From contig CAYPVU010000007.1 in the NCBI GenBank assembly GCA_964414295.1, positions 43,492 through 107,491 on the forward strand: 64,000 bases of DNA, written 5' to 3'. The position numbers and the translations under genes are program-made. Source of the stretch: an uncultured Candidatus Saccharibacteria bacterium. Its GTDB lineage: Bacteria > Patescibacteriota > Dojkabacteria > J137. Positions within the stretch are counted from its first letter, which is position 1. The number at the start of each line of letters is the position of its first letter. Below, piece after piece: positions 21,566-42,288 of this stretch. The notes under the pieces were generated by a model, which did not search any database, had not been told where the DNA came from, and saw nothing but the letters and a program-made list of their open reading frames with translations.

Positions 21566-23296
21566 TTATGCTAAAGCATAAATTGATATAATCTTGTACA
21601 AGTTAATGGAGAGGTACCCAAGTGGCTCAAGGGGAGGGTTTGCTAAACCCTTAGGTCGGAGTAATCCGGCGCGCAGGTTCGAATCCTGTTCTCTCCGAAT
21701 TTCAGTACGAACAGCTTCTACAAGCTCGGATTGCATTGTTTTCTCAATGGTTATCAGCGGTTCGAAAATATTTTCTGCTACATTTGCATTTTCAAGCACT
21801 TTCGAACTTTCGTTCGTAATATCTACCACTTTCTTTAGAACCTTAAAAGGTTCCGTATATTTGTACTGCATTTTGCCGTTGTAGAGGGTTATATCTCCAA
21901 AGATGTATTTCATTAAGCCGCTTATATCCTCTGGGTCGAGAATATCGTAAATCTCGTCAGCATATTGGGCAACGAAATAAACTAACGTTCCAACCTGATA
22001 ATACTTATTGCTGTCTTTGTTTAATTTCTGAATCTGTTCTTCAATCTTTTCTTTTTCATCCTCTAATTGCTTATTCTTGACTTTGTAAATATCAAGGCTT
22101 ATAAGTTCATCCAGTTTGTCATCATAGAGTCGTGATTGCTTTTCGATTATTTGCTGTAACTCATCACTTAGGGAATCAACGGATATTTTTAAATACTGTT
22201 CTTGCTCTTTATTATCTTCCTTCAATGCTTTTTTAATCCATTCCTTTACTCTTGGCGATTGTACTTTCAAAGCTTTGAGAGCATTTGTTATAACTTCGTC
22301 ACAATCATCTTCACGACCACATTTATTTTGACTACATTCACGATGATGATTACATCTACCATAAATATGACCTTTCTTTTCAAACCAAGAGATTGAACCT
22401 TGGCATTCTTCACATCTGACTAAACCTTTAAGCATATAGAAGTGTTTACTATATTTTGCATCGGGTTTTCTGGATAATGCTTGTTGAACTCTAGTAAATA
22501 ATTCTTTACTAATAATTGGTTCATGTTTACCGTTCGTATAAACTTTCCCGTTCCATTGGAAAGCACCATAGTAAAAAGGATTGCGTAGAATTTCGTGCAT
22601 ACGGCTCTTCACTATCTTTCGACCTTGTTTATTTCGCATACCATCTGCATTCATCCTTTCGGTTAGTGTTTCAAGTGAGTAATTACCAGTTACAAATAAC
22701 TCAAAAGACTTTTTAATAAATTTTGCAGCATCTCCATCAACAACATGAATTTTACGTTTAGTACCCATTCCTTCTACAGATTTGTATCCAAGTGGAGCCG
22801 AGCCAGGATACCAACCTTGTTCAATCTTTTCGGTTTTACCTTTTCTAACTTCTTCTGATAGATTGTCAGCATAGTTTTTAGCCATTGCGACACGTATATC
22901 CCAATTTAATTTATCCTGAGACTTCGAATGTTTATGAAGTTCAAGAGAATCTTTTACGCAATGTAATTCTCGTCCTTCATCTGCTTCTAACCAGTTATAA
23001 ATATCGACACTAGAGTGTATTGAACGAGTTACTCTATCTACCTTTTCGAATACTAAAACGTCAATAGCTTCTTCTACTGCCAATTTAAGTATCTTATTAA
23101 ACTCTTTTCGTTCGTCTTTCTTGCTAGCTGATTCTGAGATAGTAAACACATGTTTTATATCCAGATTCTTTCTTTGAGCGTGTTCTGTAAGTAGTTTTAC
23201 TTGTGAAGGCAATGAGTATCCTTCAACCTCTTGGTCTTTTGAACTAACTCTAGCTACTACTATGCAACTTTTATTTGTGTTACTTTTTGTATTCAT
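21566..23296 (-). CDS. Large serine recombinase (resolvase/invertase-type catalytic domain + recombinase + zinc-ribbon domains)
   Basis: N-terminus CIVVARVSSKDQEVEGYSLPSQ (catalytic Ser motif). Central recombinase region, cysteine-rich CxxC..C..C segment, coiled-coil C-terminus. Its last ~45 codons are read antisense through the tRNA-Ser gene. Confidence 0.85.
   Translation of the reverse strand: MNTKSNTNKSCIVVARVSSKDQEVEGYSLPSQVKLLTEHAQRKNLDIKHVFTISESASKKDERKEFNKILKLAVEEAIDVLVFEKVDRVTRSIHSSVDIYNWLEADEGRELHCVKDSLELHKHSKSQDKLNWDIRVAMAKNYADNLSEEVRKGKTEKIEQGWYPGSAPLGYKSVEGMGTKRKIHVVDGDAAKFIKKSFELFVTGNYSLETLTERMNADGMRNKQGRKIVKSRMHEILRNPFYYGAFQWNGKVYTNGKHEPIISKELFTRVQQALSRKPDAKYSKHFYMLKGLVRCEECQGSISWFEKKGHIYGRCNHHRECSQNKCGREDDCDEVITNALKALKVQSPRVKEWIKKALKEDNKEQEQYLKISVDSLSDELQQIIEKQSRLYDDKLDELISLDIYKVKNKQLEDEKEKIEEQIQKLNKDSNKYYQVGTLVYFVAQYADEIYDILDPEDISGLMKYIFGDITLYNGKMQYKYTEPFKVLKKVVDITNESSKVLENANVAENIFEPLITIEKTMQSELVEAVRTEIRREQDSNLRAGLLRPKGLANPPLEPLGYLSINLYKIISIYALA
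21608..21697 (+). tRNA. tRNA-Ser (anticodon GCU), type II with long variable arm
   Basis: Cloverleaf read by eye: acceptor GGAGAGG/TCTCTCC, 3-bp D-stem, anticodon stem AGGGT/ACCCT with loop TTGCTAA (GCU), long variable arm, T-arm GCAGG-TTCGAAT-CCTGT, discriminator G. 90 nt, no encoded CCA. Confidence 0.85.
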
Positions 23297-23317: not shown

Positions 23318-23647
23318 TTATAATATTTTTTGTTCTAACATTCCTTTGAATTTTTGGCTTTTATAGACAAGGTTATTGCAAGTTCGACATGCCACAACGC
23401 CAGTCAAAGGATGTTTATATAGTTTTCCAATTCGTTTATTGCAGCGAGGGCAAGTAAACCAGAATCGTAATCCATATCTAGTCTTTGAGGTTGTTAGCTT
23501 TACTTCTAATCCTTCGACATTGATTTGCGACTTTATAAATGATTCCTTTGCCTGTAAATAGAATTGCTTAACTAAATCATTGATGTTGATTTGCTCAGCC
23601 GTTTCTACTAAAAAACTTCCTGAATCAATTGGCTTTATTGTTTTCAT
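23318..23647 (-). CDS. Small zinc-ribbon protein
   Basis: CPRCNKR...CRTCNN pair of CxxC motifs. 109 aa. Confidence 0.4.
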   Translation of the reverse strand: MKTIKPIDSGSFLVETAEQININDLVKQFYLQAKESFIKSQINVEGLEVKLTTSKTRYGLRFWFTCPRCNKRIGKLYKHPLTGVVACRTCNNLVYKSQKFKGMLEQKIL

Positions 23648-24239
23648 CTTGTGGTGTTGTTATTGAATTAAACTGCTGATTTTGCCCAACTATTGCTGTC
23701 TCAGCTTTTAGAGTGACCTTTAGTGACGGTGATTTAAGTTGCTGTAACGTTGTTAAAGCTGTTAGATATTGTCTGTTAGCTTTATCTATCTCTTTACTCA
23801 AGAAATTGTAGTAGTTGGTGTGGTCTGAACTTATTTTGACCGAATCGCCTGACATACAGTGCATTAACCTTCGTGAAAGTCCTAGAGACCTACAAAAAGC
23901 ATTTACAATAATTTCTACCAGTGACTTTTCTTGAATAGTTTTGCAGTTATGTTCTTTAATTAAGTCTTGCGTCATTTTGATAGCCATAGGAGCCATGTGG
24001 TCACCAACTGATTCTGCAAGGTTAAAATGCTTATCGAACTCGTAAACATGCCCAAAGATGTTTAGTACATCTTGTTCAACTCTGCTTAGCTTATCGGCAT
24101 CTTGCTCTTTGTTTTTTGCATAATCTAGTATTCGTAAGACTTTTCTAGTTATATATTCTGGTTCAAGATTATGATTACCTATACTTTCCAGTGCTGTTTT
24201 GATTCTATCGTCTAATGAAGTACTAATTTGTTTATCCAT
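23625..24239 (-). CDS. Hypothetical protein
   Basis: 204-aa ORF inside the island's minus-strand block. Confidence 0.35.
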   Translation of the reverse strand: MDKQISTSLDDRIKTALESIGNHNLEPEYITRKVLRILDYAKNKEQDADKLSRVEQDVLNIFGHVYEFDKHFNLAESVGDHMAPMAIKMTQDLIKEHNCKTIQEKSLVEIIVNAFCRSLGLSRRLMHCMSGDSVKISSDHTNYYNFLSKEIDKANRQYLTALTTLQQLKSPSLKVTLKAETAIVGQNQQFNSITTPQDENNKAN

Positions 24240-24248
24240 AAATGATTA

Positions 24249-25526
24249 TTAAGAAATAAATTTATCTAATTGCGAATCTAAATTTTTTACCCTCCCAGAC
24301 TGTTCACTATTGTTTCGTTCTAATCTTGTAGGGGTATAGCGTAAAATTCGCTTATCATTTCTATCTTGCTCAAGTTCCAAAAGCCCTGCTGTTTCTAGCA
24401 TTGGCAATATTTGCAGCCTTAGTTTGTTTTCCTCGAGTAGTTGACTTGTTTCCTCGTAATATCTCCTTCTAATGTCTTCTCGCTTAATACCGAATCGTGA
24501 AGTCTCTTTATGGCTTACATTCATTCGTATATATTCAGGAACTACAATATTCCAGTACAGGTTATAAATGTAGGGTGGAAGGTTGTATTCTTGTGGTTCG
24601 GAAAGTGAATCCCAGAGTCTATAGGCTTCACGCACATCTTCTTCTGTAGCCTCGATAGTGTTGCCGTATCTGTTTCTAAAAGGGAAATTAAGCAGACTGA
24701 TTACTTTGATTAGCGAAACAACTCTGCCAATGTCCCTCGTATGCCTTGGCTTAGGTGTTTTGCGTGTCTGCCAGAACAGTTCTACTATCAATTTCTTATG
24801 CTCGACTATATTTACATCGCTAACTCCCGATTCTTTTATGGCAATAATTCGCTCCATTAACTCACGACGCTTTGGATTTGAATTAAGTTGCTCAATGTAA
24901 TTATTAAAATCTGATTCTTTCTCGACTTTGGTGTATACAGACTCTCTAATCTTCTCACTATCAATTTCAGGCGATAAAAGCAGAAACCTTGTACCTTCCT
25001 GTTCGTCAATCTTCATGCCAGCACTACAGAAGATAACTGCTGGGTAGCCAATTAACTCAATTTCTTTCGTCTTCAACCCTGCTTTTTGTTTCTTGTCGGC
25101 AATTTGCACTCGTAGAACCTTCTCATCGTGGGAAAGTAGCGGTCTAAGTCTTTGCAGTAGTTCAGTGTGTGGCTGGTCTTGAAATATGATTATCTTATTG
25201 GATAAGTCGATAACAATGACATGCCTTGATTCGTCCCATTTACCAGTCCCATGAAAGAATGCCATGGGTGAACTGTAGGCAAGCGTCAGCACATCTTCTT
25301 TTGGAAAAAGTGTCGAAACTTCCATCGGAATAAACGACTTACCTGTAGACGAAGGTGCATTGAAGCTGATATTAAACTGAGAGTTTTCAGTGTAAATAGA
25401 GAGCATGCATAAGAACGCTACTAGCTTGTTCATGTTGTCCTTTTTGATTGTTAATTCGAGAATCTCGACTATCTCATTAAGGGTTATTGGTTCTAAAGAA
25501 GGTTTTTCGGTTGTTTGCATTTTCAT
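24249..25526 (-). CDS. P-loop NTPase, putative replication (primase/helicase-associated) protein of mobile element
   Basis: Walker A NAPSSTGKSF. Size and context (between the integrase and regulator genes) are typical of satellite/prophage replication modules. Confidence 0.4.
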   Translation of the reverse strand: MKMQTTEKPSLEPITLNEIVEILELTIKKDNMNKLVAFLCMLSIYTENSQFNISFNAPSSTGKSFIPMEVSTLFPKEDVLTLAYSSPMAFFHGTGKWDESRHVIVIDLSNKIIIFQDQPHTELLQRLRPLLSHDEKVLRVQIADKKQKAGLKTKEIELIGYPAVIFCSAGMKIDEQEGTRFLLLSPEIDSEKIRESVYTKVEKESDFNNYIEQLNSNPKRRELMERIIAIKESGVSDVNIVEHKKLIVELFWQTRKTPKPRHTRDIGRVVSLIKVISLLNFPFRNRYGNTIEATEEDVREAYRLWDSLSEPQEYNLPPYIYNLYWNIVVPEYIRMNVSHKETSRFGIKREDIRRRYYEETSQLLEENKLRLQILPMLETAGLLELEQDRNDKRILRYTPTRLERNNSEQSGRVKNLDSQLDKFIS

Positions 25527-25546
25527 ACGTAATAAAAACTAAGTTG

Positions 25547-25954
25547 TTATTTGATTCCTAGTGCTTCTTTTGAAGCAAATAATGGGAAGTCGCTTCTAAG
25601 GTAAAGTTTCGTACAATATTTCGAATCTCCTAAAATTGGGCATATGAATTGGAATTTGCCTTTCTCATCTTGTGTAATGGAAACCTCTTGCGAAACATGA
25701 ATGTTCTCGTCCCTTTCGGCAGACTCTAAGAAGTACCCAAAATGAAACTCTAAACTACCAAACCAGCCATTACTTCTCATTATGTGCAGGTCAAATATTT
25801 CATCGTTGCTAAGTTTGAGTTTAGGATGAAAGCAAAACTTCTCAGTTATTTCAAAGTCTTCATTGACAGCTAAACCCGCTTTAACTAAATCTTCTACGTC
25901 AACACTTAAAACAACCTCTGATTCCTTAATTGGTTGTAAACTTGGAACTTTCAT
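25547..25954 (-). CDS. Hypothetical protein
   Basis: 135-aa ORF. Confidence 0.3.
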   Translation of the reverse strand: MKVPSLQPIKESEVVLSVDVEDLVKAGLAVNEDFEITEKFCFHPKLKLSNDEIFDLHIMRSNGWFGSLEFHFGYFLESAERDENIHVSQEVSITQDEKGKFQFICPILGDSKYCTKLYLRSDFPLFASKEALGIK

Positions 25955-25983
25955 AAATAAATTTGTTAATAAATAAAATACTG

Positions 25984-26193
25984 TTAATCGTTTGTTTCGG
26001 ATTGCTCTTGCTTAGTATTTCGTTCAACAATCGCACTAAGTTTCCCTCGCTTTTTAGAAACCGCTTGTGTGAGTAGCGAGTACATGCCTTTGAGGCTTTC
26101 TCCAAACAGTTTTAGGTCACTGTCAGTTAGTTGAATCTGAAAGTCTTCCCAAAGAATTTGTTTTAGCTCGGCTAATAACTCATCACTTATCAT
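25984..26193 (-). CDS. Small hypothetical protein
   Basis: 69 aa. Overlaps the next small ORF in phage-like fashion. Confidence 0.25.
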   Translation of the reverse strand: MISDELLAELKQILWEDFQIQLTDSDLKLFGESLKGMYSLLTQAVSKKRGKLSAIVERNTKQEQSETND

Positions 26194-26425
26194 AGATTCG
26201 TCCTTTTATAATTCTTAATTGCTGATAAAATCGCTTAGGCTCAACTCTTAATTCGTCTTGCCAGAATTGTTGAACTAGTTGTTGTAATTCAGAGGAGTTA
26301 TCAAATGCAAATTCAACTCTACTATCATTAGACCTGTCTACGAATTTGATGGGGAAATACAAGCTGATAGTAATAGCCAAGGCTAAATCAGAAGTAGTGA
26401 ATAGGTTGGTTGGGTTCATTGTCAT
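26183..26425 (-). CDS. Small hypothetical protein
   Basis: 80 aa. Confidence 0.25.
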   Translation of the reverse strand: MTMNPTNLFTTSDLALAITISLYFPIKFVDRSNDSRVEFAFDNSSELQQLVQQFWQDELRVEPKRFYQQLRIIKGRIYDK

Positions 26426-26516
26426 AAAGTTAAAAACTTATATGACTTGATTTTACGAAGCAAGTCTTTCGCAAACCATTAGCGAAACGATGGGAAAGAT
26501 TGGGGGATTGATGGGA

Positions 26517-27119
26517 TTATGAAGTCTGAAACGATGTCACTTTGAAACCTTGACTACGAATAGAGACAATCATATTTCTTATTTGTTCTGCTATTTTCTT
26601 TGGAACACCACACCCAACTAAATCATTTACAAGTTCTGCTTTATATTGTTGTGTTGCTAAAGCGTCATCCAGTGGGGATAAATCTTTGTCTATTGACTCG
26701 ATAATATCTGAGTATTTAACCAGATTCTCTTTCTTCTTTAATAGAATTATTAGCATAGCAATCGAGCGATTCTTTATCTTGACGTTAGGGTAAACCACAC
26801 CTTCCCAGAACAAATTGCATTTATCTATATCGATTGTTAGCTTGCCACACTCAAGAATATTCGGAGGACTTTGTAATTCTCCCTCTACAACAAGTTTGGC
26901 TTTATCATCTTGTAATTTCCCGATAATGAATCTGTGGAATAATCCAAACTGTCTGTCTATCTCTTTTCTTGCTGGTATTTGCTCTCGTTTATCTAATACA
27001 TCTCCACTCAGAATGGTATTTACTTCGTTGCTGAGTTTGGAATTATCTTCGATAACTAGATTATCGGCTCCAATTTTCTGTAATCTTTCCTGATTATCTA
27101 TATCGTTATCAACAACCAT
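26517..27119 (-). CDS. Hypothetical protein (first gene of minus-strand block, divergent from XRE gene)
   Basis: 200-aa ORF facing a ~210-bp AT-rich divergent intergenic region. Confidence 0.35.
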   Translation of the reverse strand: MVVDNDIDNQERLQKIGADNLVIEDNSKLSNEVNTILSGDVLDKREQIPARKEIDRQFGLFHRFIIGKLQDDKAKLVVEGELQSPPNILECGKLTIDIDKCNLFWEGVVYPNVKIKNRSIAMLIILLKKKENLVKYSDIIESIDKDLSPLDDALATQQYKAELVNDLVGCGVPKKIAEQIRNMIVSIRSQGFKVTSFQTS

Positions 27120-27330
27120 AGTGATAAGGAAATGTTATAGAAAACTTCGAACCGCTTTTAATTAGAATATTAAACGAAACTTATTCTGATTACGAGCAGG
27201 CCGGATTACCTAAGAATGGTTACACTATTCAGATGGAGCATGACATTAAAAGACTTTATCAAATTAAAATAAAAGACTTTATAAACAGTAACAAATAAGT
27301 TACAATAATCATAACTTTAAACATTGAATT

Positions 27331-27561
27331 ATGAACGAAGAGCAAAAAATCGAAGCATTCTTAACTCACTTAGAAGATTTACTCGCAGAAAAAGGATGGA
27401 GTATCCCTACATTCGCTAAAAAAATGAAAGTTTCGAAAGTTACTGTTTATCGTTGGTTAGATGGTAAAGCAGTAATGAGTTTAGCACACTACTATAGAGC
27501 CTTAGAGGTTCTAGGATTGGAAGAAAGCTTAACTGTTAAAGAAAATAACGATGGAATTTAA
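27331..27561 (+). CDS. XRE/Cro-type helix-turn-helix transcriptional regulator
   Basis: IPTFAKKMKVSKVTVYRWLDGKAV helix-turn-helix. 76 aa. Divergently transcribed from the minus-strand block. Confidence 0.6.
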   Translation: MNEEQKIEAFLTHLEDLLAEKGWSIPTFAKKMKVSKVTVYRWLDGKAVMSLAHYYRALEVLGLEESLTVKENNDGI

Positions 27562-27916
27562 ACCTTCTAAAACCGTATTTATTGTTCAAATGATATTCGG
27601 TGTTTTAATGCTATGCCCTACTTTTGGATTATGGATTTTTGTGATGATTCCACAAATACTAAGCTATTTAAACCAATCATTACACGTTAATGAGAGTGGT
27701 TTAATTATGAGAACTGGAATATTGAATGTTACTACTCAGGATATTAAATACTCAAAGATAAATTCAATAACAGTAAGAAAAAGCCTTTTAGGTAGGTTCT
27801 TAAATTACGGAACTTTGGTAATATTTACAGGAAACGATCTAGGCGGAATTGCTTTTAAGAATCTTGATGAACCTTACAAGGTGAAATCTATACTAGACAA
27901 CAAAATCGCAGGGTAG
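27551..27916 (+). CDS. Membrane protein with bacterial PH (YdbT/DUF304-like) domain
   Basis: Two N-terminal TM helices, then ...ITVRKSLLGRFLNYGTLVIFTGND..., typical of bPH_2. Confidence 0.5.
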   Translation: MEFKPSKTVFIVQMIFGVLMLCPTFGLWIFVMIPQILSYLNQSLHVNESGLIMRTGILNVTTQDIKYSKINSITVRKSLLGRFLNYGTLVIFTGNDLGGIAFKNLDEPYKVKSILDNKIAG

Positions 27917-27977
27917 GAAAATGGTATTCCGCCGGCTTCATAACCCGGAGTAGATAGTTCGAATCTATCCCCTGCAA
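27907..27977 (+). tRNA. tRNA-Met/Ile2-like (anticodon CAU), 71 nt, island-encoded
   Basis: Acceptor CGCAGGG/CCCTGCA with a C1xA72 mismatch, D-arm GGAA-AATGGTA-TTCC, anticodon arm CCGGC-TTCATAA-CCCGG (U33, CAU, A37; C31xC39 mismatch), 4-nt variable, T-arm GATAG-TTCGAAT-CTATC. Short D-loop and variable loop. Confidence 0.45.
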
Positions 27978-27998
27978 GATATTTTTTATTAAGAATAT

Positions 27999-28235
27999 AT
28001 GTTCAACTTCTTTAAACCGAGATACATCGCATTTTTTAGTAAAGGTACTAATGATGAAGGCCAAAAAGTAGAAGTTGAAGTAACTCTTCCGGTTAATTCT
28101 TTCAGATTAGCAGAAGTTTTCACTGCAGATAAGTATTTTGTTGAATTATTAGCGCAACCGATAGGATGGGAAATTTCAAAAGAAACTTATATGAAGCTTC
28201 GAAAGTTCTTACATATTAAAAGTACAAGGCTATGA
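27999..28235 (+). CDS. Small hypothetical protein
   Basis: 78 aa. ATGA-type overlap with the next gene. Confidence 0.3.
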   Translation: MFNFFKPRYIAFFSKGTNDEGQKVEVEVTLPVNSFRLAEVFTADKYFVELLAQPIGWEISKETYMKLRKFLHIKSTRL

Positions 28236-29239
28236 AGATAGCTTTTTTAGGTAATTTCAGAGTAGATTATACTTCCGAAACACACTATTTAAAAACACTA
28301 CAAAGATTAGGCCATGAAGTTATTGCTATTCAAGAAGGAAGTGCAGAATTAGCAGTGAATAAAGAATCTTTTTTCAAGAATCTCGCAACTGTAGATATGT
28401 TCTTTTGGGTACATACTCACGGATGGAAAACAGAAGGACTTAGTAAAGTAATGCAGATAATTCGAACAAACAATATTCCGGTAGTTGGTTATCATTTAGA
28501 TTTATGGAAAGGTTTAAAACGAGAAAAAGACTTAGAAACCGATGATTATTGGAAATATCTAACCCACTTCTTTACCTGTGATAAATTATTCATTCCTGAT
28601 TTAGAAGAAAGAGGAATAAAGGCATATTTCTTACCTGCAGGAGTATTTCAAGATGAATGCTATTTAGGAGATTGGAAAGAATATTACAATTACGATGTTA
28701 TATTTGTAGGTTCGAAAACTTATCATCCGGAATGGCCATATAGAACGCAATTAATAAACTGGTTAGAAAAAAAATATGGAAAAAGATTTGCGCTTTTTGG
28801 AATGCAAGGTGTAAATAAAGCACAAATTAGAGGTAAGGAATTAAACAATTTATATGCTTCCGCAAAAATAGTAATTGGCGATACGCTATGTAAAGGATTT
28901 GATTATCCTTACTACCTTTCAGATAGAATTTTCGAAACAACCGGAAGAGGCGGTTTTATAATTCATCCTTATATCAAGGGGATTGAGAATTTGTTTAATT
29001 TAGGCCTTTATACTGCAGATGGGAAAGGTTTTAGAGCAGAAGGAAGAGAGCTAGTTACCTACAAGTTTAATAATTTTGATTATTTAGAATATTCGATTGA
29101 TTATTTTCTTAAACACGAGGATGAAAGGGAAATGATAAAACTAGCAGGCCATGAAAGAACTAAGAAAGATCACACCTACAAAAGCAGGATGTGGTTTATT
29201 ATAAATACTTTATTTCCTGATACAACGAACATTATATGA
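28232..29239 (+). CDS. Hypothetical protein (possibly glycosyltransferase-1/CgeB-like fold)
   Basis: The MKIAFLGNF... N-terminus resembles Rossmann-type GT1/CgeB starts. No firm motif. Confidence 0.3.
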   Translation: MKIAFLGNFRVDYTSETHYLKTLQRLGHEVIAIQEGSAELAVNKESFFKNLATVDMFFWVHTHGWKTEGLSKVMQIIRTNNIPVVGYHLDLWKGLKREKDLETDDYWKYLTHFFTCDKLFIPDLEERGIKAYFLPAGVFQDECYLGDWKEYYNYDVIFVGSKTYHPEWPYRTQLINWLEKKYGKRFALFGMQGVNKAQIRGKELNNLYASAKIVIGDTLCKGFDYPYYLSDRIFETTGRGGFIIHPYIKGIENLFNLGLYTADGKGFRAEGRELVTYKFNNFDYLEYSIDYFLKHEDEREMIKLAGHERTKKDHTYKSRMWFIINTLFPDTTNII

Positions 29240-29489
29240 AAATTGAAACGATTAAAGTAATTGAAAAAACAATAAGTGTACTATCTACAGTATGGTCAAG
29301 TGAAGATGTTTATAAACTACCACAGCAGCAGGAGACATCTTTAGAGCTATATTTGTTTCAGAATATTTGAAGAGTAAGAATACTGAATCATCACTAAAAG
29401 TAGCTTTGGAAACTGCGACCGAGTCAACAAGGTATAAAGGTGTTAACAATACAATTACTCAACTATTCCATCGAACTAAGAAATAACTT

Positions 29490-32400
29490 ATGGGAAAGTT
29501 AACCGAACATACTACTTCTGTATGGAATGAATCAAAAATAAAGGAAAGCAATGCTGGCTTAAAGGCGAAGTTTATTGCTTATCTGAAGCCCGATAAACTG
29601 GGCTGGAATATTTGGATAGTCAATGCCTTGATATTTGCCGTTATATTTTTCCTTACACACATTTTTCTATTCTTTCCATCACTCAAACCTTGTTCAATTT
29701 CTCCTTTTGAGGAAACAAATCACCTACAAAATCTGTTTACTCTACACGCAGCGGTGACTGCATTGATATTTCCAATGGTGTTTTTCATTGCCGAGAAGTT
29801 AAGGTCTACTGATAAGGATGAAGGACGTGTATTAATTCGAGAAAGCTCATTCTGGCATATTATCTTTTTTGGAACTGCACTATTTTTAAATTTAGTCATT
29901 GCTGGTGATGACATATGGCGAGTTGCTGCATACTTAGTGCATTTTCTATATATACTTCTGGTTCTTAATTCGATACGTTCGATAATAAACATACTCCTAA
30001 ATCCACTGGAAATGGATAAGCGCACTCAGCAACTCTATACCCAAAGGATGAATAGGTACAACAATGAACTTATATCATTGAGAATCGCTAACAATAATTT
30101 TGCAGGATACTTAAAACAAAATCCCTATACTGATTTCTCTTTTTTTAATGAGGATAAAGAGATTGTGTTTAAGTCCGAGAAATTTGGCACTATAACCGAT
30201 ATAAATATTAAAGCACTACACAAACTTATTAACAGGGTTATAAAACTATCTGCGCAAAAAGAAAAGTTATCTGATAGCAGTGCCGAATCTGAGACTCCAA
30301 AACCCGTTGAAGAGAAGCCAGCAAAACCTGAAATAAAGGTCAGTAGATTAATTGGTCATAAAGTAACGCAAGAGCATTCTAATCTGCTTACCATTAGGGG
30401 CATTAGCAATCAAGATGAGAAAGAAGTTAAGCAGCTTGTTCAGCAAGTATTTATTATCAATGAAACTAAGTCTTTTGATGAAGAGCTGGAAGTAGAGCTA
30501 GGTGCAATTAGAGATGATTTAATACAAAGTATTCGTTCTAATAGCCAATCAAAGATAAAAACAAAGCTTGACCAGATTGAGAAAGTTACATCGAGCTTTC
30601 TTAAAGCTCTTAACGCCATTAATTCTAATTACAGTGCGGAAGACGCAAACCAAGAACGAGGTAATTTGATTGAAAGATGGAACCAAATAGAATTTGTAAC
30701 AGATATTCTAGATGATGCTTTGCAAGAAAGTCTTTCTACAAATAACCAAAAGATTGTAAAAGAAATTATATATTTCCCTTTTAGGCTATCCCGTCTAGCC
30801 ATTAAATATAATGACCATTTGATATTTCAAACCTTTATTGGCTACATTGGTCGAGTCTACTTTCTAGGAAATAGCAGAGATATAGATAAGTCGGTTAAGG
30901 AATTTATCTTTGACAGGTCTTTCAGGCATCTATCTGAGTTTGCTAATTACGTTTTAGTGCCTGATGCAGAAAAGCAAGGTGGTGATGCTGACCTTTCAAA
31001 TTATTATTCATATTTCCAGTCCATAGCAAAAGTATTCGTAAACTTAATGAAGTCAGCTTACGATGCAAAAAATGAAAAACACTTTGCTAGATTTGCTACT
31101 GAGCTTAGCAAGATAGCGAAATATTTTGAAAGTCGCACATATAGGAATCACTATGATGATTCGGATACTGATATAGATTCTAAATTGAAACTTAAAAAGC
31201 ACATAGAGGAAAGCAAGCAAGATATATTTTTTGGTTTTGCATCATTTATATTGAGAGACTTCATGAGTTCCAAAGATGAAAAACTAAAGCCTTATATTCA
31301 GAAACTAGAATCGTTATTGCCTAATGATATTAAAGAATTTACAGAAATTTTTATACGGGTTCATAACTTTGATATGGGGGAAGTTTGGGGATGGGATTGG
31401 TGGCATGTTAGGGAAGACGAAGAGCATTTTTCAAAAATAGAAACACTCCCTAATCTTGAAAAGTTTTATGCTGTAAGAGGACTGGCATTAGTAGGGCACC
31501 TTGACCAAAACTACTTAGAGCGTATAGATATGCCTACAAGCAGAGACCTTTACTATTTGACAGAAGGAACGAGAGATTTATTGAATCTCTTAAATCACAT
31601 TAAGCAAAATCCAACGCAATATAGCTATCTAATAGCAGATATTACAGAAGAAAAAGTCAACAAGTTTATATCACTGCTGGATAAGGCAAAACAAAAACAA
31701 ATCGAGATTGATAAAAAAACAATAGTAGGCAGTTCATTAGATGAAGAAAAGGTTGCAGAGTTTATTAAAGATTTTAGAGATGGATATAACCGCCACACTG
31801 TACTAAGGTCAATATTCAAAGCGTATAGCAAAATTGAAGATAAGACGGATACTTACATAAAACAACCCGAAGCACGAGGAGTGAACCAAGTTGAAGATAA
31901 AGAAGCATTTATTAGGGACTGGCATGTACATTATGCAGAGTTAGGTGAACACTTTGGCAGTAACATGGCTTATTTTCAAAATCAGAAATTATTGAGTTTT
32001 GCCAAAGAAAAATCACATGCATTAACCATAGAGGAATTGCTCCAAACTGAAGAAGACCCTACTGACTTAATTGCAATACTTGCAGGTAGTAACTTATATG
32101 AGCTTAAAGAAATGTACGAAAATAATAAGTCAGTAAGACTATTCTCATCTTGGGAAGTTGCTTCCGATACAGCCGAATCCAAGTTACCAGTTCTAGGTGA
32201 ACATATTGATGGGTTTATTGAAATTAAGAACGTAAAGGTGCCAATAATTATTATTGATGGCGAAAGAGATAAACCTGAATTGATAGTAATTAAACCTTCA
32301 TCTCTGGGGAAAGCGATTCAATACAAACCGCTTGAAAGTGTTGACTCAGACAGTCTAATAGAGGGTATTTTTAGCCTTGAAATAATTGATATTGCAAAAG

Positions 32401-32573
32401 ATGAATCACTAATGAAAGAATTTCTAGAAAAGAAACCTGAATGGTTAAAGAAAGAAGCTGACCAAGAGAATTACTTGAAGCAAAAAGTCATTATCAAAAT
32501 ATTCGAAAAACTTGGTTACGAAGAATCTGGTGACGAAATAGTTTTTTTGATTGAACTTCCAAAGTTACAGTAG
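29490..32573 (+). CDS. Large (1027 aa) protein with N-terminal 4-TM membrane anchor and ~850-aa soluble domain, function unknown
   Basis: Hydrophobic helices within the first ~170 aa. The remainder is charged/helical with no recognised catalytic motifs. Confidence 0.45.
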   Translation: MGKLTEHTTSVWNESKIKESNAGLKAKFIAYLKPDKLGWNIWIVNALIFAVIFFLTHIFLFFPSLKPCSISPFEETNHLQNLFTLHAAVTALIFPMVFFIAEKLRSTDKDEGRVLIRESSFWHIIFFGTALFLNLVIAGDDIWRVAAYLVHFLYILLVLNSIRSIINILLNPLEMDKRTQQLYTQRMNRYNNELISLRIANNNFAGYLKQNPYTDFSFFNEDKEIVFKSEKFGTITDINIKALHKLINRVIKLSAQKEKLSDSSAESETPKPVEEKPAKPEIKVSRLIGHKVTQEHSNLLTIRGISNQDEKEVKQLVQQVFIINETKSFDEELEVELGAIRDDLIQSIRSNSQSKIKTKLDQIEKVTSSFLKALNAINSNYSAEDANQERGNLIERWNQIEFVTDILDDALQESLSTNNQKIVKEIIYFPFRLSRLAIKYNDHLIFQTFIGYIGRVYFLGNSRDIDKSVKEFIFDRSFRHLSEFANYVLVPDAEKQGGDADLSNYYSYFQSIAKVFVNLMKSAYDAKNEKHFARFATELSKIAKYFESRTYRNHYDDSDTDIDSKLKLKKHIEESKQDIFFGFASFILRDFMSSKDEKLKPYIQKLESLLPNDIKEFTEIFIRVHNFDMGEVWGWDWWHVREDEEHFSKIETLPNLEKFYAVRGLALVGHLDQNYLERIDMPTSRDLYYLTEGTRDLLNLLNHIKQNPTQYSYLIADITEEKVNKFISLLDKAKQKQIEIDKKTIVGSSLDEEKVAEFIKDFRDGYNRHTVLRSIFKAYSKIEDKTDTYIKQPEARGVNQVEDKEAFIRDWHVHYAELGEHFGSNMAYFQNQKLLSFAKEKSHALTIEELLQTEEDPTDLIAILAGSNLYELKEMYENNKSVRLFSSWEVASDTAESKLPVLGEHIDGFIEIKNVKVPIIIIDGERDKPELIVIKPSSLGKAIQYKPLESVDSDSLIEGIFSLEIIDIAKDESLMKEFLEKKPEWLKKEADQENYLKQKVIIKIFEKLGYEESGDEIVFLIELPKLQ

Positions 32574-32682
32574 CAATCTCATTTATAATTCTCATCAAAT
32601 TAAGTATAATTAACTCATAAGTTTTAGGAAGACCTAAACTCAGTGCTTGCATTGGGCATGGTTGAACTAAAATATACAAAAT

Positions 32683-32812
32683 CCACAACGACGATAATAG
32701 CGGCTTCCTAGCCAGCACTTCGTCGTTGTGGTCGAGAACTCCGAAAGGGTCTCGGGTACGTACGAAAGGAGGTATCGCTGGTGTGGGAAGCCACTTTTGC
32801 TTCCTGCTAACT
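32683..32812. other. GC-rich structured element (candidate ncRNA / structured leader)
   Basis: Perfect 11-bp inverted repeat ccacaacgacg(32683-32693)/cgtcgttgtgg(32721-32731), plus further hairpins (ccga-aagggtc-tcgg; ggaagc-cactttt-gcttcc). Local GC is far above the AT-rich background. Confidence 0.3.
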
Positions 32813-32853
32813 TTCCATATCAGCACTACATTATTTTAGTTATATTTACTGAT

Positions 32854-33810
32854 ATGAATGGTGACAACGACACTATTTCAAGGATTAAGCGTTTTCTAGG
32901 TGACAAAAGGAAATTAATGTTTACTTTGCCTCTAGGATGTTTAATATTACTTTGTTTCTGCTGTTTCTCAATCTTCTTACTAGGTTACTTCCTCCCGCCG
33001 ACACTTAAACTTGCTGCTGACGATAACGGTAAAGCTGTATTAGAGCCGAACTATACAATCTCACTTGAATGCTCTGGCATTACCCAACTCAAATTGAACG
33101 ACAAAGAACTATCTACGCAAGAACGAGATGCAATTTGTAGCAAGACTGGCTATAAAGCCGATTTAGTAAATGGTGATAATGCTTTTAACCTTGAAGGTAG
33201 TGATTTGAAAGGTCAGAAGGTAGAGTTAGCTTTTACAATCAAGTATGACGAAGCCGAACATGAAAGAATCCTTGCGCAGCAAGAACAAGATAGACTTGCT
33301 GAAGCTGAAAGACAAAAACAGCTCGAAGAGGAAAATAAGCGAAAGCAGGAAGAGGAAGCTAAACAAAAAGCTGAACAAGACGCAAAAGCTTTGAGTGAAT
33401 GGAAAAACAAATACTACCAATATAAATCCTCAAATATCGATGTTAACTTTGCCAAGTCCAGCGAAATGATTCAGGTATTAAGTAACGGCGTTGATTCTTA
33501 TCAGAGTAGAAATCAAGCAAAGAATTATAAGCAATACTTTGTAAGCCAATGTAAAGCTACCTTAGAAAATGACCTAAAACCGATACCATCTACAGTTAGT
33601 CAAGAAATCAAAGACCTAAACACATTCTACAGCGATTTTTGCCTGTACAACAACTCGTTAGCCAGCAAAGTTGTAAGCTACTTTGAGTCTACCTCAACAC
33701 AAGACCAGTACAACAATCTAGATATGATTACCTACTACATGGGCGAGGTTAACAATGCAAAACTCAATATGGAAGGCAAGATGTCAGCTATTGATTCTAA
33801 GTTAAAGTAA
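32854..33810 (+). CDS. Membrane-anchored coiled-coil protein
   Basis: The ORF track starts at 32728 but the first 42 codons cover the GC-rich structured element. The internal Met at 32854 precedes a TM helix (LGCLILLCFCCFSIFLLGYF) and a KQ/E-rich coiled coil. Confidence 0.4.
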   Translation: MNGDNDTISRIKRFLGDKRKLMFTLPLGCLILLCFCCFSIFLLGYFLPPTLKLAADDNGKAVLEPNYTISLECSGITQLKLNDKELSTQERDAICSKTGYKADLVNGDNAFNLEGSDLKGQKVELAFTIKYDEAEHERILAQQEQDRLAEAERQKQLEEENKRKQEEEAKQKAEQDAKALSEWKNKYYQYKSSNIDVNFAKSSEMIQVLSNGVDSYQSRNQAKNYKQYFVSQCKATLENDLKPIPSTVSQEIKDLNTFYSDFCLYNNSLASKVVSYFESTSTQDQYNNLDMITYYMGEVNNAKLNMEGKMSAIDSKLK

Positions 33811-33829
33811 GTTTTAATTAACAACAAAT

Positions 33830-34057
33830 ATGGATAAAAAATATGAAGTCAAAACAATAAAGTACAACAACGAGAGAGCAATGACGCAAGGCAAGAAGAA
33901 TATGATTAGCAAAGGTTGGGAGGTGGTAGAAACTGTAACAATAAATGGGAGATATGGCTGTTTCAATACAGCCTGTTTGGGTTGCTTATTCCTACCATTG
34001 GCACTGCTGGGTAAATCTAGTGATAGCTATCAGGTGACGTATAGAAAAGTGAAATAA
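33830..34057 (+). CDS. Small hypothetical protein
   Basis: 75 aa. Confidence 0.25.
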   Translation: MDKKYEVKTIKYNNERAMTQGKKNMISKGWEVVETVTINGRYGCFNTACLGCLFLPLALLGKSSDSYQVTYRKVK

Positions 34058-34119
34058 ACAAAGTACAAAATAGTTTACTTTGGAAGTATAATTGGTTAGA
34101 TATTTCTTACTTATTAAAT

Positions 34120-34596
34120 ATGAGTGCAGATAATCTGCTATCAGAAGGTTTGCAAAAAGGTTTTGGTGGTTCAACAAACATTGAAAAAACTTCCAGAGGT
34201 AGCTTTCAACTCACTTCAAGTCATTATGAAGGAGGTAGCGGAGTTTATCACGATGAATGGGTGACTGGCGGCGGACAAGAACTTGTAAGAACACAAGATG
34301 GTGAATCAATGACTAGAACTTATGTTGGTAATGTTATTGCGCCTGAAAAATTGGAAGAATTGGGTATAACAGAAAAAGATGTAATGACTGTACTTAAAAG
34401 AGTAATAACTGAACATGGTGACCAGATTAGATTAGGAGATGATTTCGAAATAACATTGGACGACTGGCTGTACACTTATAAAGTAACTTACAGGCGTGAA
34501 GACCCTTATATTATTAACGGAATTGAAGAAATCCTTTATAAAGACCAGTCAGTTTTTGTTCATACTTTTGGAATTAGCAAGGTAGTCGAAAGCTAA
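34120..34596 (+). CDS. Hypothetical protein
   Basis: 158 aa. Confidence 0.3.
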   Translation: MSADNLLSEGLQKGFGGSTNIEKTSRGSFQLTSSHYEGGSGVYHDEWVTGGGQELVRTQDGESMTRTYVGNVIAPEKLEELGITEKDVMTVLKRVITEHGDQIRLGDDFEITLDDWLYTYKVTYRREDPYIINGIEEILYKDQSVFVHTFGISKVVES

Positions 34597-34619
34597 TCTT
34601 ATTCATTATTAGTTAGCTC

Positions 34620-34988
34620 ATGTACCATGCAATCATAATTAACAAACAGTTTGTAGACAGCAATTATCCTAACACAAAAGATGTATTTGCGAAGAAAGTT
34701 GATGGAGATTGGGAGATTTTTGGAGTAAAAGTGGAAGATAGTGAACTGGATGACTTTATTGCAGAAGTCCAACAAAATATGAGGCCAAATCAAACTTGGT
34801 ATGCGCATGCCTACAACGATACTGAAATGCTTGTTATCTTCAAAGATAAAGTAATCAAAGTCACTCCTCACCAGTCAACTTGGACTCCAATCTTTGAGTA
34901 TGGGAAATCACTTGGTATTCCTGAAAAGCAATTAGATTTCTGGCCAAATAGATTTCAGGATGAGAAGCATTATTTTGAGGAGAAGTAG
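34620..34988 (+). CDS. Hypothetical protein
   Basis: 122 aa. Confidence 0.3.
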   Translation: MYHAIIINKQFVDSNYPNTKDVFAKKVDGDWEIFGVKVEDSELDDFIAEVQQNMRPNQTWYAHAYNDTEMLVIFKDKVIKVTPHQSTWTPIFEYGKSLGIPEKQLDFWPNRFQDEKHYFEEK

Positions 34989-42287: not shown

Positions 42288-42288
42288 A

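What the first reader, a model, noticed from the sequence alone, without database searches (positions are those of the whole stretch)
21566..23296. Serine recombinase gene reads antisense through the entire tRNA-Ser gene at the island edge
tRNA-Ser(GCU) occupies 21608-21697 (+). The serine-recombinase ORF (-) has no stop until 21566, so its last ~45 codons (..QDSNLRAGLLRPKGLANPPLEPLGYL..) are encoded opposite the full tRNA.

This is the classic signature of an element inserted at a tRNA that carries its own copy of the tRNA to regenerate it. Here, though, the integrase is a large serine recombinase, not a tyrosine integrase, and the overlap spans the whole tRNA rather than its 3' end.
Basis: seen in the sequence. 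Interest (0 to 1): 0.55.

Follow-up and report, generated by a model that had tools for sequence, protein, structure and literature searches.

The report
Serine integrase gene split by tRNA insertion
A 13.4-kb mobile element has inserted at the very end of a bacterial tRNA-Ser gene using a large serine integrase whose recombination site lies inside its own gene, so insertion cuts off the enzyme's last 36 codons and the remaining gene runs by accident backwards through the tRNA; about 70 related elements sit at tRNA or tmRNA genes in the same way.

Summary
tRNA-Ser(GCU) lies at 21608-21697 (+). A 576-aa large serine recombinase (LSR) ORF, 21566-23296 (-), reads antisense through all of it.

The tRNA belongs to the host, and the element carries no copy of it. 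The attP site lies inside the 3' end of the LSR gene. Crossover falls in a 3-nt core, tRNA nt 71-73 (CCG; 21695-21697 and 35123-35125). Integration therefore split the gene. Codons 1-534 stay beside the tRNA at attL. The native last 36 codons and the stop lie 13.4 kb away at attR, (-) 35125-35012. Reading through the whole tRNA is incidental.

A profile of uninterrupted tails from distant homologues hits only that fragment in the window (E = 5e-13). Among 93 related loci, 68 LSR ORFs end in an antisense tRNA or a T-loop motif: Asn, Gln, Ser (four anticodons), Asp, Tyr, Trp, Val and Arg. More distant relatives sit at Leu and tmRNA. At least 10 loci also carry the orphan tail upstream.

A T-loop-like motif in attP sits 5 bp further from the core than the real T-loop in attB. 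This is the known serine-integrase attP/attB offset.

I rate it a new variant of known kinds.

The parts
21608..21697 (+). Host tRNA-Ser(GCU), intact. Its 3' part (T-loop 21677-21683, T-stem, acceptor strand) is the B half-site of the original attB.
   Evidence: ARAGORN; Rfam 52.1 bits; sequence.
21695..21697 (.). attL core, CCG = tRNA nt 71-73. The crossover dinucleotide is most likely 21695-21696 (nt 71-72), otherwise 21696-21697.
   Evidence: It is the only block identical in register between attL and attR in the window. The same position is shared in 11 other attL/attR pairs, and identity never extends to nt 70 or lower. The same element at tRNA-Leu versus tmRNA diverges from nt 71 inward.
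21566..23296 (-). Large serine recombinase ORF as it stands in the integrated state (576 aa). Residues 1-533 (21698-23296) are element-encoded. Arg534 is the core codon. Residues 535-576 plus the stop (21566-21694) are an accidental read-through of host DNA, antisense to the tRNA and 39 nt (13 codons) of its 5' flank before the stop.
   Evidence: ORF list; Pfam; alignment with homologues whose sequences diverge exactly at this point.
21698..21722 (-). P' half-site of attP. It is also the coding sequence for the conserved ..EAVRTEI.
   Evidence: Element-side sequence is conserved among elements at different tRNAs. The half-site length is inferred from the 25-bp half-sites of Rutherford 2013.
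23318..27119 (-). Conserved core module of the element: ORFs of 109 aa (zinc-ribbon-like), 204, 425, 135, 69, 80 (DUF5659 in homologues) and 200 aa.
   Evidence: The same gene order lies next to the LSR in L001-L006, L039 and L045. L001 is 89% identical in DNA over window 21671-26397.
27120..27330 (.). Divergent intergenic control region with a 23-nt tandem repeat (27240-27285), between the 200-aa gene (-) and the HTH gene (+).
   Evidence: the repeat finder family D15; HTH repressor-type PHROG hits for 27331-27561. The regulatory role is inferred.
27331..34988 (+). Cargo region: HTH regulator, bPH_2 membrane protein, tRNA-Met(CAU) 27907-27977, glycosyltransferase 28232-29239, 1027-aa protein 29490-32573, and ORFs of 360, 158 and 122 aa.
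   Evidence: Pfam and PHROGs. The 1027-aa protein has a homologue beside an uninterrupted-tail LSR in L126, E = 2e-97. The 155-nt block 32575-32731 is shared with L001. A bPH_2 gene is also present in element L046. G+C is 0.32-0.37 against 0.26-0.30 in most of the host flank.
35012..35125 (-). Orphan 3' end of the recombinase gene: core codon CGG, 36 codons (EAWDDFRTSNWVNIIKYPESFIQQGVQLLSVVNVQI) and stop TAA 35014-35012. The P half-site of attP lies at about 35098-35122. The T-loop mimic TTCGAAC lies at 35106-35100.
   Evidence: An HMM of 14 uninterrupted tails from distant homologues hits only this fragment in the six-frame translation of the window (E = 5e-13; next best 2.5). It is 82% identical in DNA to L039 457-606. 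It aligns colinearly with uninterrupted homologues.
35123..35125 (.). attR core (CCG on the + strand).
   Evidence: In-register identity with attL.
35126..35150 (+). B' half-site: the displaced native 3' trailer of the tRNA-Ser gene (CCATTTTGCTTCGGTTGC...).
   Evidence: There is no similarity to the P' side of attL, so this junction is B'|P and not a second attP. The extent is inferred.

Best explanation
The window holds a 13,428-bp integrative element, from core 21695-21697 to core 35123-35125, in a Dojkabacteria-like Patescibacteria (CPR) genome. Its own large serine recombinase (LSR) inserted it into the extreme 3' end of the host tRNA-Ser(GCU) gene.

In the free, circular form the LSR gene is 570 codons long and attP lies inside its last 45 or so codons. 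The P' arm encodes ..EAVRTEI. The crossover core is the Arg534 codon (CGG). The P arm encodes EAWDDFRT.

attB is the tRNA's 3' end. The acceptor strand and T-arm form the B arm, and the 3' trailer forms B'. The crossover lies at tRNA nt 71-72, possibly 72-73.

The universally conserved T-loop sequence (TTCGAA) most likely serves as the binding motif for the enzyme's zinc-ribbon domain in the B arm. attP carries a mimic of it 5 bp further out, as in characterised serine integrases.

Recombination leaves the tRNA intact but splits the LSR gene. At attL the ORF loses its stop and native tail and runs on through whatever the antisense tRNA encodes, 43 junk residues here. The native 36-codon tail is stranded at attR. 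Excision would rebuild both the full-length gene and the native tRNA trailer.

Shown by sequence: both junctions, the split gene, the family-wide pattern and the 5-bp motif offset. Inferred: which domain reads the T-loop, that the element is still active, and any regulatory effect of swapping the tail.
For: (1) The tRNA and the LSR ORF are confirmed.

(2) The orphan tail at (-) 35125-35012 is the only window hit of an HMM built from 14 uninterrupted tails of distant homologues (E = 5e-13; next 2.5). The rebuilt C-terminus aligns colinearly with uninterrupted proteins P0011, P0035, P0047, P0049 and P0053.

(3) Of the 120 closest homologues, 61 end in an antisense-T-loop 'DSN' tail and 10 have the uninterrupted W-D-D-F-R-T tail. 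About 30 stop right at the junction; that figure is my reading of the 47 'other' tails.

(4) Close relatives (65-90% identity) sit at tRNA-Ser GCU, UGA, CGA and GGA in unrelated contexts. In JGI metagenomes the targets are Asn (20), Gln (13), Ser, Asp, Tyr, Trp, Val and Arg. In IMG/VR relatives they are Leu and tmRNA.

(5) Orphan tails lie upstream on the same strand in at least 10 further integrated loci, giving elements of about 4.7-11 kb.

(6) In 12 attL/attR pairs the shared in-register core is tRNA nt 71-73, sometimes extending to 74-76 and never to nt 70 or lower.

(7) TTCGAAC starts 14 nt from the core base in the tRNA arm and 19 nt from it in the P arm, in the window and in the three other pairs I measured by hand. 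This matches the published 5-bp shift of the ZD motif between attB (bp 11-19) and attP (bp 16-24).

(8) No second tRNA fragment is present.

(9) Cargo homologues, the shared 155-nt block and raised G+C support 21.7-35.1 kb as one element.
Against: No empty attB and no circular attP junction of this particular element was recovered. The relatives found with the single genome scan lose synteny right after 20452 and have no tRNA-Ser there. None of the uninterrupted-gene contigs is circular.

The element contains a tRNA-Met with an initiator-like acceptor end, which is unusual cargo.

In L002, L003 and L045 no orphan tail lies within the 10 kb I could read. I attribute this to long cargo but did not show it.

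Two loci do not fit simply. The right junction of L039 is not a tRNA. L050 has an attP-like copy rather than an attR.

The B' arms show no consistent motif.

The choice between nt 71-72 and nt 72-73 rests only on the rule that the central dinucleotide should not be palindromic.
Confidence: 0.88

Rival explanations
1. The classic tRNA-island model. The element carries its own copy of the tRNA, or of its 3' part. Crossover occurs inside the tRNA, and the displaced host fragment sits at the far end as a direct repeat.
For: The integrase abuts the tRNA 3' end, as in tyrosine-integrase islands. attP does contain a short T-loop-like motif. A 17-nt T-arm-like remnant exists at 35325-35341.
Against: No repeat of the tRNA 3' end is present, allowing up to 7 mismatches in 30 nt, in the window or in L002-L004. 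tRNA bodies differ with the host, while the element side is conserved. attL/attR identity is only 3-7 nt and stops at nt 71. No tyrosine recombinase is encoded in 21.7-35.1 kb. The T-loop mimic is out of register with the real T-loop by 5 bp and is read in a different frame.
Confidence: 0.03
2. The tail fragment at 35.1 kb belongs to another, older or decayed element of the same family in a tandem array. The element whose recombinase abuts the tRNA would then end elsewhere, for example near 27.2 kb, before the HTH gene, the bPH_2 gene and tRNA-Met.
For: A tRNA-Met lies inside the proposed element. L050 shows that attP-like remnants can occur upstream of an integrated copy. Nucleotide homology with L001 stops at 26397, and protein-level similarity with L003 stops at about 26860. 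A second recombinase/terminase block lies just to the right.
Against: The 35.1-kb junction is B'|P, with no trace of P' sequence. No other att-like junction or tail was found between 27 and 35 kb. The 27.12-27.33 kb gap looks like an internal divergent control region with repeats. The 1027-aa cargo gene, the bPH_2 gene and the 155-nt block recur in related elements. G+C stays raised up to 35 kb. L039 also has several kb of cargo between the tail and the core.
Confidence: 0.07
3. The overlap is itself a selected function. Either the tRNA-antisense-encoded peptide, or convergent transcription and RNA pairing between the abundant tRNA and the recombinase mRNA, regulates the recombinase in the integrated state. 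Equally, loss of the native tail could act as a directionality or immunity switch. This is an addition to the best explanation, not an alternative to it.
For: The native tail is conserved beyond the roughly 25-bp P arm (W..I..PE....Q.LL), which suggests a protein-level role that integration removes. Truncated ORFs remain open in dozens of loci. The geometry is convergent with the tRNA gene, which lies on the opposite strand. Comparable switches are known: archaeal 'suicidal' integrases, and truncation of phiRSS0 ORF13 on integration.
Against: Junk tails vary from 0 to about 45 residues, and their sequence is dictated solely by the tRNA, so the peptide itself is not selected. The AlphaFold model gives the native tail low confidence (pLDDT 49-64) behind a disordered linker, with no confident docking. 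There are no expression data.
Confidence: 0.25
4. A chance juxtaposition. A resident recombinase gene merely lies next to a tRNA and happens to lack a stop codon. No insertion junction is involved.
For: Read-through of about 43 codons has a chance of roughly 0.1 on composition alone (my estimate).
Against: The same junction, at the same tRNA position and in the same frame, recurs in at least 68 of 93 related loci, at more than 10 tRNA species and at tmRNA. The missing tail is found at the other end.
Confidence: 0.01

Closest known systems
Large serine integrases (phiC31, Bxb1, A118/LI, TP901-1, SPbeta SprA)
   Same: The domain order is the same: resolvase catalytic domain, recombinase domain, and zinc ribbon with a long coiled coil. 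The att sites are short, with a tiny identical core and no long repeats. The same motif occurs in attP and attB arms, displaced by 5 bp.
   Different: The characterised examples integrate into protein-coding genes or intergenic DNA, with attP beside the int gene; this is from my own knowledge. Here attB is the 3' end of a tRNA or tmRNA gene, and attP lies inside the integrase ORF, so the gene is split. A large LSR survey does not mention tRNA at all. [quoted passage not shown]
phiRSM1/phiRSM3 filamentous phages of Ralstonia (ORF14 small serine recombinase)
   Same: A serine recombinase targets the 3' end of a tRNA-Ser gene in reverse orientation. The core, TGGCGGAGAGGGT, covers the same CCA/discriminator/acceptor positions.
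   Different: That enzyme is a small resolvase/invertase-type protein without recombinase or zinc-ribbon domains. Its attP is intergenic, between ORF14 and ORF15, with 13 nt of identity. Here the enzyme is a 570-aa LSR, identity is 3-7 nt, attP is intragenic, and many different tRNAs are used across the clade.
Archaeal 'suicidal' (SSV-type) tyrosine integrases
   Same: attP lies within the integrase gene. The target is a tRNA gene. Integration partitions the integrase gene between the two ends of the provirus.
   Different: Those are tyrosine recombinases, and the review calls them exclusive to archaea. They cut the gene into two substantial parts. Here the enzyme is a serine recombinase in bacteria, and only the last 36 of 570 codons are removed, so all the folded domains remain in one ORF.
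Tyrosine-integrase genomic islands in tRNA/tmRNA genes (Islander signature; P4, pSAM2 and similar)
   Same: The integrase gene abuts the tRNA 3' end. Small cargo-carrying islands use several tRNAs and tmRNA.
   Different: Here there is no tyrosine recombinase and no duplicated tDNA fragment. The element does not regenerate the tRNA; it simply leaves it untouched.

Membership tests
Large serine recombinase / serine integrase | N-terminal resolvase-type catalytic domain with the catalytic Ser/Arg motif | tested here: met
   PF00239 covers residues 12-161, E = 4.2e-20, 72.8 bits (cut-off 23.3). R16, V17, S18 and S19 are invariant across 16 homologues.
Large serine recombinase / serine integrase | Recombinase domain (PF07508) following the catalytic domain | tested here: met
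   Residues 189-276, E = 2.9e-19, 69.6 bits (cut-off 21.1).
Large serine recombinase / serine integrase | Zinc-ribbon domain with an embedded coiled coil | tested here: inconclusive
   PF13408 scores 18.9 bits, below the cut-off of 25.3. However, C295, C298, C315 and C321 are invariant. The AlphaFold model of homologue P0047 shows beta strands followed by long helices 352-384 and 390-441, then more strands.
Large serine recombinase / serine integrase | Short att sites with a 2-bp crossover and no long direct repeats flanking the element | tested here: met
   The core is 3 nt in the window and 3-7 nt in 11 other pairs. No repeats flank the element.
Large serine recombinase / serine integrase | The same outer (ZD) motif in attP and attB half-sites, 5 bp closer to the centre in attB | tested here: met
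   TTCGAAC starts 14 nt from the core base in the tRNA arm and 19 nt from it in the P arm. I measured this in the window and in L088, L121 and L086. That the ZD binds this motif is inferred.
Large serine recombinase / serine integrase | Catalyses attP x attB recombination unidirectionally, with excision needing an RDF | not testable with these tools
The 109-aa zinc-ribbon-like ORF that always lies next to the LSR is only a guess at an RDF.
Tyrosine-integrase tRNA island (Islander signature) | A tyrosine recombinase is encoded on the island | tested here: not met
   No Phage_integrase hit among the element ORFs scanned. The 69-, 78- and 80-aa ORFs were not scanned with Pfam.
Tyrosine-integrase tRNA island (Islander signature) | A tDNA fragment is duplicated at the distal end, and the element-borne part restores the tRNA | tested here: not met
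   No second copy of the tRNA 3' end was found. Only the 3-nt core is shared.
Archaeal suicidal (SSV-type) integrases | attP inside the integrase ORF, so integration partitions the gene | tested here: met
   The orphan 3' end lies at (-) 35125-35012. The same arrangement occurs in at least 10 other loci.
Archaeal suicidal (SSV-type) integrases | Tyrosine recombinase of archaeal mobile elements | tested here: not met
   This is a serine recombinase in a Patescibacteria host.
phiRSM-type small serine recombinase integration module | attB is the 3' end of tRNA-Ser, read in reverse orientation relative to the recombinase gene | tested here: met
   compared.
phiRSM-type small serine recombinase integration module | Small resolvase/invertase-type enzyme, intergenic attP, 13-nt identity | tested here: not met
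   The enzyme here has 570 aa and a Recombinase domain. attP is intragenic. The core is 3 nt.

The most novel reading that the evidence does not exclude
A large, mostly Patescibacteria-borne clade of large serine integrases has evolved to read the universal T-loop and acceptor end of tRNA and tmRNA genes as an attB half-site. This lets lineages hop between tRNA species. The clade keeps attP inside its own ORF, so that integration swaps the enzyme's C-terminal tail. On this reading the tail swap is a built-in switch: it stabilises the integrated state, or makes excision depend on a helper or on the restored gene. That would be a bacterial, serine-recombinase counterpart of the archaeal 'suicidal' integrases.
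Probability: 0.3. Interest if true: 0.8.

Novelty: new variant of a known kind. Interest (0 to 1): 0.62.

Why it matters
1. It extends tRNA and tmRNA gene targeting to large serine integrases. [quoted passage not shown] A large LSR survey never mentions tRNA. The only precedent I found is the small serine recombinase of phiRSM.

2. It offers a structural logic. The invariant T-loop may act as the zinc-ribbon-domain motif, at exactly the attB spacing. That would explain why related enzymes use Asn, Gln, Ser, Leu and other tRNAs and tmRNA, and it is directly testable.

3. It shows an integrase gene split by its own integration outside archaea and outside the tyrosine recombinases. A 2021 review calls this feature exclusively archaeal.

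4. There are practical consequences. Dozens of database recombinase proteins, 61 of the 120 closest homologues here, carry chimeric C-termini translated from antisense tRNA. Island finders that look for a duplicated tRNA fragment will miss these elements. Integrases with natural sites in highly conserved tRNA genes could be useful for engineering poorly tractable bacteria.

5. It defines a family of small (about 5-13 kb) integrative elements in CPR bacteria. These elements carry cargo such as a glycosyltransferase, a tRNA and large unknown proteins.

Tried and rejected
1. I searched for a second copy of the tRNA-Ser 3' end, with up to 7 mismatches in 30 nt, in the window and in L002-L004. None was found.

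2. I looked for island-free relatives using the flanking ThyA-like gene in genome contigs. Five Patescibacteria loci came back, but synteny ends at 20452 and there is no tRNA-Ser there, so no empty attB was obtained. That scan was the only one allowed.

3. My first model, later rejected, came from the left homology break between L002 and L003 (host|TTGCAATGTAAAGC...). I inferred a TT crossover just after the discriminator and a free-form ORF ending ..EI-AM*. The motif is absent from the window. The break is more likely a cargo boundary. The TT match was coincidental, and the 12 attL/attR pairs place the core at nt 71-73.

4. Other crossover candidates in the window were trailer +4/+5 'AA' and nt 67-68 'AG'. 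Neither position is shared in the other pairs. The latter would also give the native tRNA an A3:C70 mismatch.

5. I tested for inverted-repeat symmetry of attP using the GTTCGTA in the P' arm. Its spacing does not match that of the P arm. No consistent B' motif was found.

6. I tested contigs with uninterrupted genes for circularity. None has terminal repeats.

7. The promoter and terminator scan around both junctions gave nothing above shuffled expectation.

8. AlphaFold of an uninterrupted homologue gave a low-confidence tail, so no inference on docking is possible.

9. The exact window protein is not on record in the assembly index.

10. The non-tRNA right junction of L039 and the attP-like copy in L050 remain unexplained.
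Full report
**1. Checking the observation**

ARAGORN finds tRNA-Ser(GCT) at 21607-21698 (+). The Rfam tRNA model matches 21608-21697 at 52.1 bits, against a gathering score of 29.

The ORF 21566..23296 (-) is 576 aa long. It is a large serine recombinase (LSR). The Resolvase domain covers residues 12-161 (E = 4e-20) and the Recombinase domain covers 189-276 (E = 3e-19). There is also a sub-threshold recombinase zinc ribbon at 288-340.

From the sequence, Ile533 (21698-21700) is the last codon outside the tRNA. Arg534 (CGG) is the reverse complement of CCG at 21695-21697. Residues 534-563 are antisense to the tRNA, and residues 564-576 are encoded beyond its 5' end.

The observation therefore stands. 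Reading 43 codons without a stop is not improbable in itself; I estimate roughly 0.1.

**2. The overlap is a family trait, but its length is not**

The 120 best homologues align well up to ..EAVRxEI and then fall into classes:
- 61 continue with x-x-D-S-N, which is the translation of an antisense T-loop (GAT TCG AAC).
- About 30 stop right there. This is my reading of the tails that the script classed as 'other'.
- 10 continue with a different, conserved tail: W-D-D-F-R-T-x-x-W..I..PE....Q.LL.

I then looked at genomic context for the close relatives:
- P0007 (L002) overlaps tRNA-Ser(GCU).
- P0009 (L003) overlaps tRNA-Ser(UGA).
- P0005 (L004-L006) overlaps tRNA-Ser(CGA).
- P0006 (L045) overlaps tRNA-Ser(GGA).

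Each has different host genes beyond the tRNA. L001 is 89% identical in DNA to window 21671-26397 and ends in yet another tRNA-Ser 3' part.

More distant relatives in IMG/VR (30-40% identity) abut tRNA-Leu, tRNA-Gln and two tmRNA genes. L011 and L012 are the same element at tRNA-Leu and at tmRNA. They diverge exactly at the end of the acceptor strand.

A scan of JGI metagenomes added 80 loci. There were 93 loci whose LSR aligns past residue 480 and is not cut before the junction:
- 49 ORFs end inside an ARAGORN-called antisense tRNA. The targets are Asn 20, Gln 13, Ser 9, Asp 2, Tyr 2, and Trp, Val and Arg one each.
- 19 more show an antisense T-loop motif, at a contig end or in a tRNA that was not called.
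- 10 have uninterrupted tails.
- 15 are 'other'. Several of these carry a second type of uninterrupted tail (..VRT.., with (A/C)GAAC in the DNA).

The ORF enters the tRNA by 13-89 nt, median 40. It crosses an entire tRNA only in the window, L002 and L004-L006, all of them tRNA-Ser.

**3. No tRNA copy on the element**

Neither the window nor L002-L004 holds a second copy of the tRNA 3' end, even allowing 7 mismatches in 30 nt. The tRNA bodies differ between hosts, while the sequence just downstream, which encodes EAVRTEI, is conserved between elements. The tRNA is therefore the host's. This rules out the 'element regenerates the tRNA' reading.

**4. Finding the other end: the recombinase gene is split**

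Contig L039 (P0003, 74% identical LSR) shares a 150-nt block, at 82% identity, with window 34983-35132, in the element's orientation.

On the (-) strand this block reads ..AKW-R-EAWDDFRTSNWVNIIKYPESFIQQGVQLLSVVNVQI*, with the stop at 35014-35012. That sequence resembles the uninterrupted C-termini of P0011, P0035, P0047, P0049 and P0053.

Joining window residues 1-534 to this fragment gives a 570-aa protein. Its C-terminus aligns colinearly with those uninterrupted proteins.

As an unbiased test, I built an HMM from 14 uninterrupted tails of distant homologues, leaving out the window and L039. I searched it against all 3600 six-frame fragments of the window. It hits only (-) 35155..35015, at E = 5e-13. 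The next best hit has E = 2.5.

A similar HMM, which also included the window and L039 tails, finds orphan tail fragments in other loci. They lie upstream of the LSR, on the same strand, in integrated loci including L121, L059, L113, L086, L052, L074, L091, L088, L111 and L049. These give element sizes of about 4.7-11 kb.

Proteins with uninterrupted tails (L044, L046/47, L051, L054, L055, L100, L126) have no tRNA at their 3' end.

So attP lies inside the LSR ORF, and integration separates the last 36 codons from the rest.

**5. Where the crossover is**

I aligned attL and attR in register. The anchor in attL was the real T-loop, and the anchor in attR was the F-R-T codons.

The window shares only CGG, which on the (+) strand is CCG, tRNA nt 71-73. 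In the window this is 21695-21697 and 35123-35125.

Eleven other pairs share the same three positions: CGG for Ser, CTC for Asn and Gln. Identity often extends outward to nt 74-76 and never inward to nt 70 or lower. The L011/L012 comparison independently requires the crossover to be at nt 71 or later.

The crossover dinucleotide is thus nt 71-72 or nt 72-73. I prefer 71-72 because it is non-palindromic in every pair (CC or GA), whereas 72-73 would be the palindrome CG in tRNA-Ser.

The element is therefore 13,428 bp long. The tRNA keeps all 90 nucleotides, and only its 3' trailer changes. The native trailer, now at 35126 onwards, begins CCATTTTGC. The other tRNA genes in the window do not encode CCA.

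**6. Fit to serine-integrase mechanics**

In the tRNA arm, TTCGAAC (the antisense T-loop) starts 14 nt from the core C. In the P arm, an identical TTCGAAC, which encodes F-R-T, starts 19 nt from it (35106-35100).

The same 11-nt versus 16-nt spacers occur in L088, L121 and L086.

Rutherford et al. 2013 showed that the zinc-ribbon-domain (ZD) motif of serine integrases occupies half-site bp 16-24 in attP and bp 11-19 in attB, a shift of 5 bp. With the centre at nt 71/72, the T-loop falls at about bp 12-18 of the B arm, and the mimic falls at about bp 18-24 of the P arm.

The Arg codon of F-R-T is CGA in 13 of 22 tails, against 11.5% CGA among Arg codons elsewhere in these genes. This suggests selection on the DNA motif, though the samples are not phylogenetically independent.

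My inference is that the enzyme reads the universal T-loop as its ZD motif. That would explain how the clade moves between tRNA species and tmRNA.

**7. The element and its neighbourhood**

A core module recurs in all close relatives. It consists of the LSR and ORFs of 109, 204, 425, 135, 69, 80 (DUF5659) and 200 aa.

Next comes a divergent control region with a 23-nt tandem repeat and an HTH gene. The cargo follows: a bPH_2 protein, tRNA-Met, a glycosyltransferase, a 1027-aa protein and three unknown ORFs.

Several observations place the cargo inside the element:
- The 1027-aa protein has a homologue (E = 2e-97) beside an uninterrupted-tail LSR in L126.
- A 155-nt intergenic block (32575-32731) is shared with L001.
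- bPH_2 recurs in L046.
- G+C stays at 0.32-0.37, against 0.26-0.30 in most of the left host flank.

The host is a Dojkabacteria-like member of the Patescibacteria.

**8. What the tail swap may mean**

An AlphaFold model of the uninterrupted homologue P0047 gives a confident core (residues 1-487). A disordered linker follows (488-515), then a helical but low-confidence tail (516-551, pLDDT 49-64).

Integration thus leaves every folded domain in one ORF. It replaces a tethered helical tail with tRNA-dictated junk of 0 to about 45 residues.

The tail is conserved beyond the DNA needed for attP, so it probably has a protein role. Whether losing it stabilises integration or alters directionality is unknown. 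I give this about 0.25-0.3.

**9. Comparison with what is known**

This works like a standard serine integrase, but with two unusual features.

The first is the target. [quoted passage not shown] A large LSR survey never mentions tRNA. The one precedent I found is the small resolvase-like recombinase of the phiRSM phages. Its 13-nt intergenic attP equals the antisense 3' end of tRNA-Ser(UCG).

The second is an attP inside the integrase gene. This is described for archaeal 'suicidal' tyrosine integrases, and a review calls it exclusive to archaea.

My literature access was limited to open-access text and ten searches, so a prior description elsewhere cannot be excluded.

**10. Loose ends**

- No empty attB or circular junction was recovered.
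- L002, L003 and L045 show no tail within the 10 kb available.
- The right junction of L039 is not a tRNA.
- L050 carries an attP-like copy.
- A T-arm-like 17-mer at 35325-35341 remains unexplained.

**11. Verdict**

The real feature is a tRNA-targeting large serine integrase whose gene spans attP and is split by integration, and this feature is widespread in CPR-type metagenomes. I rate it a new variant of known kinds, with interest 0.62 and confidence in the architecture about 0.88.

Noticed in passing
window 35325-35341 (+): GGTTCGAATCTTGTCCT matches the tRNA-Ser T-arm at 15 of 17 positions. It directly abuts the stop codon of the 277-aa ORF 35341-36174 (-). The 10-mer GGTTCGAATC otherwise occurs only in true tRNAs in the window. 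It may be a remnant of an older integration or an att arm of the neighbouring element.
   Followed up: partly
window 35341-43200 (-): A second mobile block lies immediately right of attR. It holds a second large serine recombinase (36207-37550, phrog_95), terminase large (37566-39110) and small (39091-39492) subunits, a DEAD-helicase/N6-methyltransferase fusion (39489-42287) and HamA (42289-43200). This looks like a prophage remnant or satellite together with a defence island.
   Followed up: partly
window 27907-27977 (+): tRNA-Met(CAU) lies inside the 13.4-kb element and overlaps the end of the bPH_2 ORF by 10 nt. Its acceptor end has a C1:A72-type mismatch like bacterial initiator tRNA, which is unusual cargo for a small integrative element.
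   Followed up: no
window 58313-58395 (+): An 83-nt tRNA called Asp with anticodon ATC and a long variable arm (Rfam 42.8 bits). The combination of anticodon and type II shape is odd. It may be miscalled or non-canonical.
   Followed up: no
window 18827-20452 (+): A 541-aa fusion protein with MtrA-like, thymidylate-synthase-like and pterin-binding (DUF4346) domains. It is conserved at 49-72% identity in other Patescibacteria MAGs.
   Followed up: no
window 32575-32731; L001 1-155: A 155-nt intergenic block rich in hairpins, 85% identical between the window element and the end of contig L001. The flanking large genes (1027 aa versus 813 aa) show no detectable similarity. It may be a recombination hotspot or a cassette boundary for cargo exchange.
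   Followed up: partly
L039-L042 (15 contigs encoding P0003): All the contigs examined (L039-L042) end 4 nt after the recombinase stop. The sequence beyond the junction (GGCACCGAGTCATTTTTGTCACC) is not tRNA-like, yet the orphan tail preceded by TGGCGG is present at L039 434-577. This suggests a secondary site, a rearrangement or population heterogeneity.
   Followed up: partly
L050 1026-1192 versus 11496-11560: A complete attP-like copy (65 nt of the P' side plus the native tail) lies 10 kb upstream of an integrated recombinase. It could be a leftover of a tandem or dimer integration.
   Followed up: partly
Protein databases (P0001-P0120): At least 61 of the 120 closest database homologues carry C-terminal residues translated from antisense tRNA (for example ..RDSNPR..). 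These are chimeric products of gene calling across attL.
   Followed up: yes
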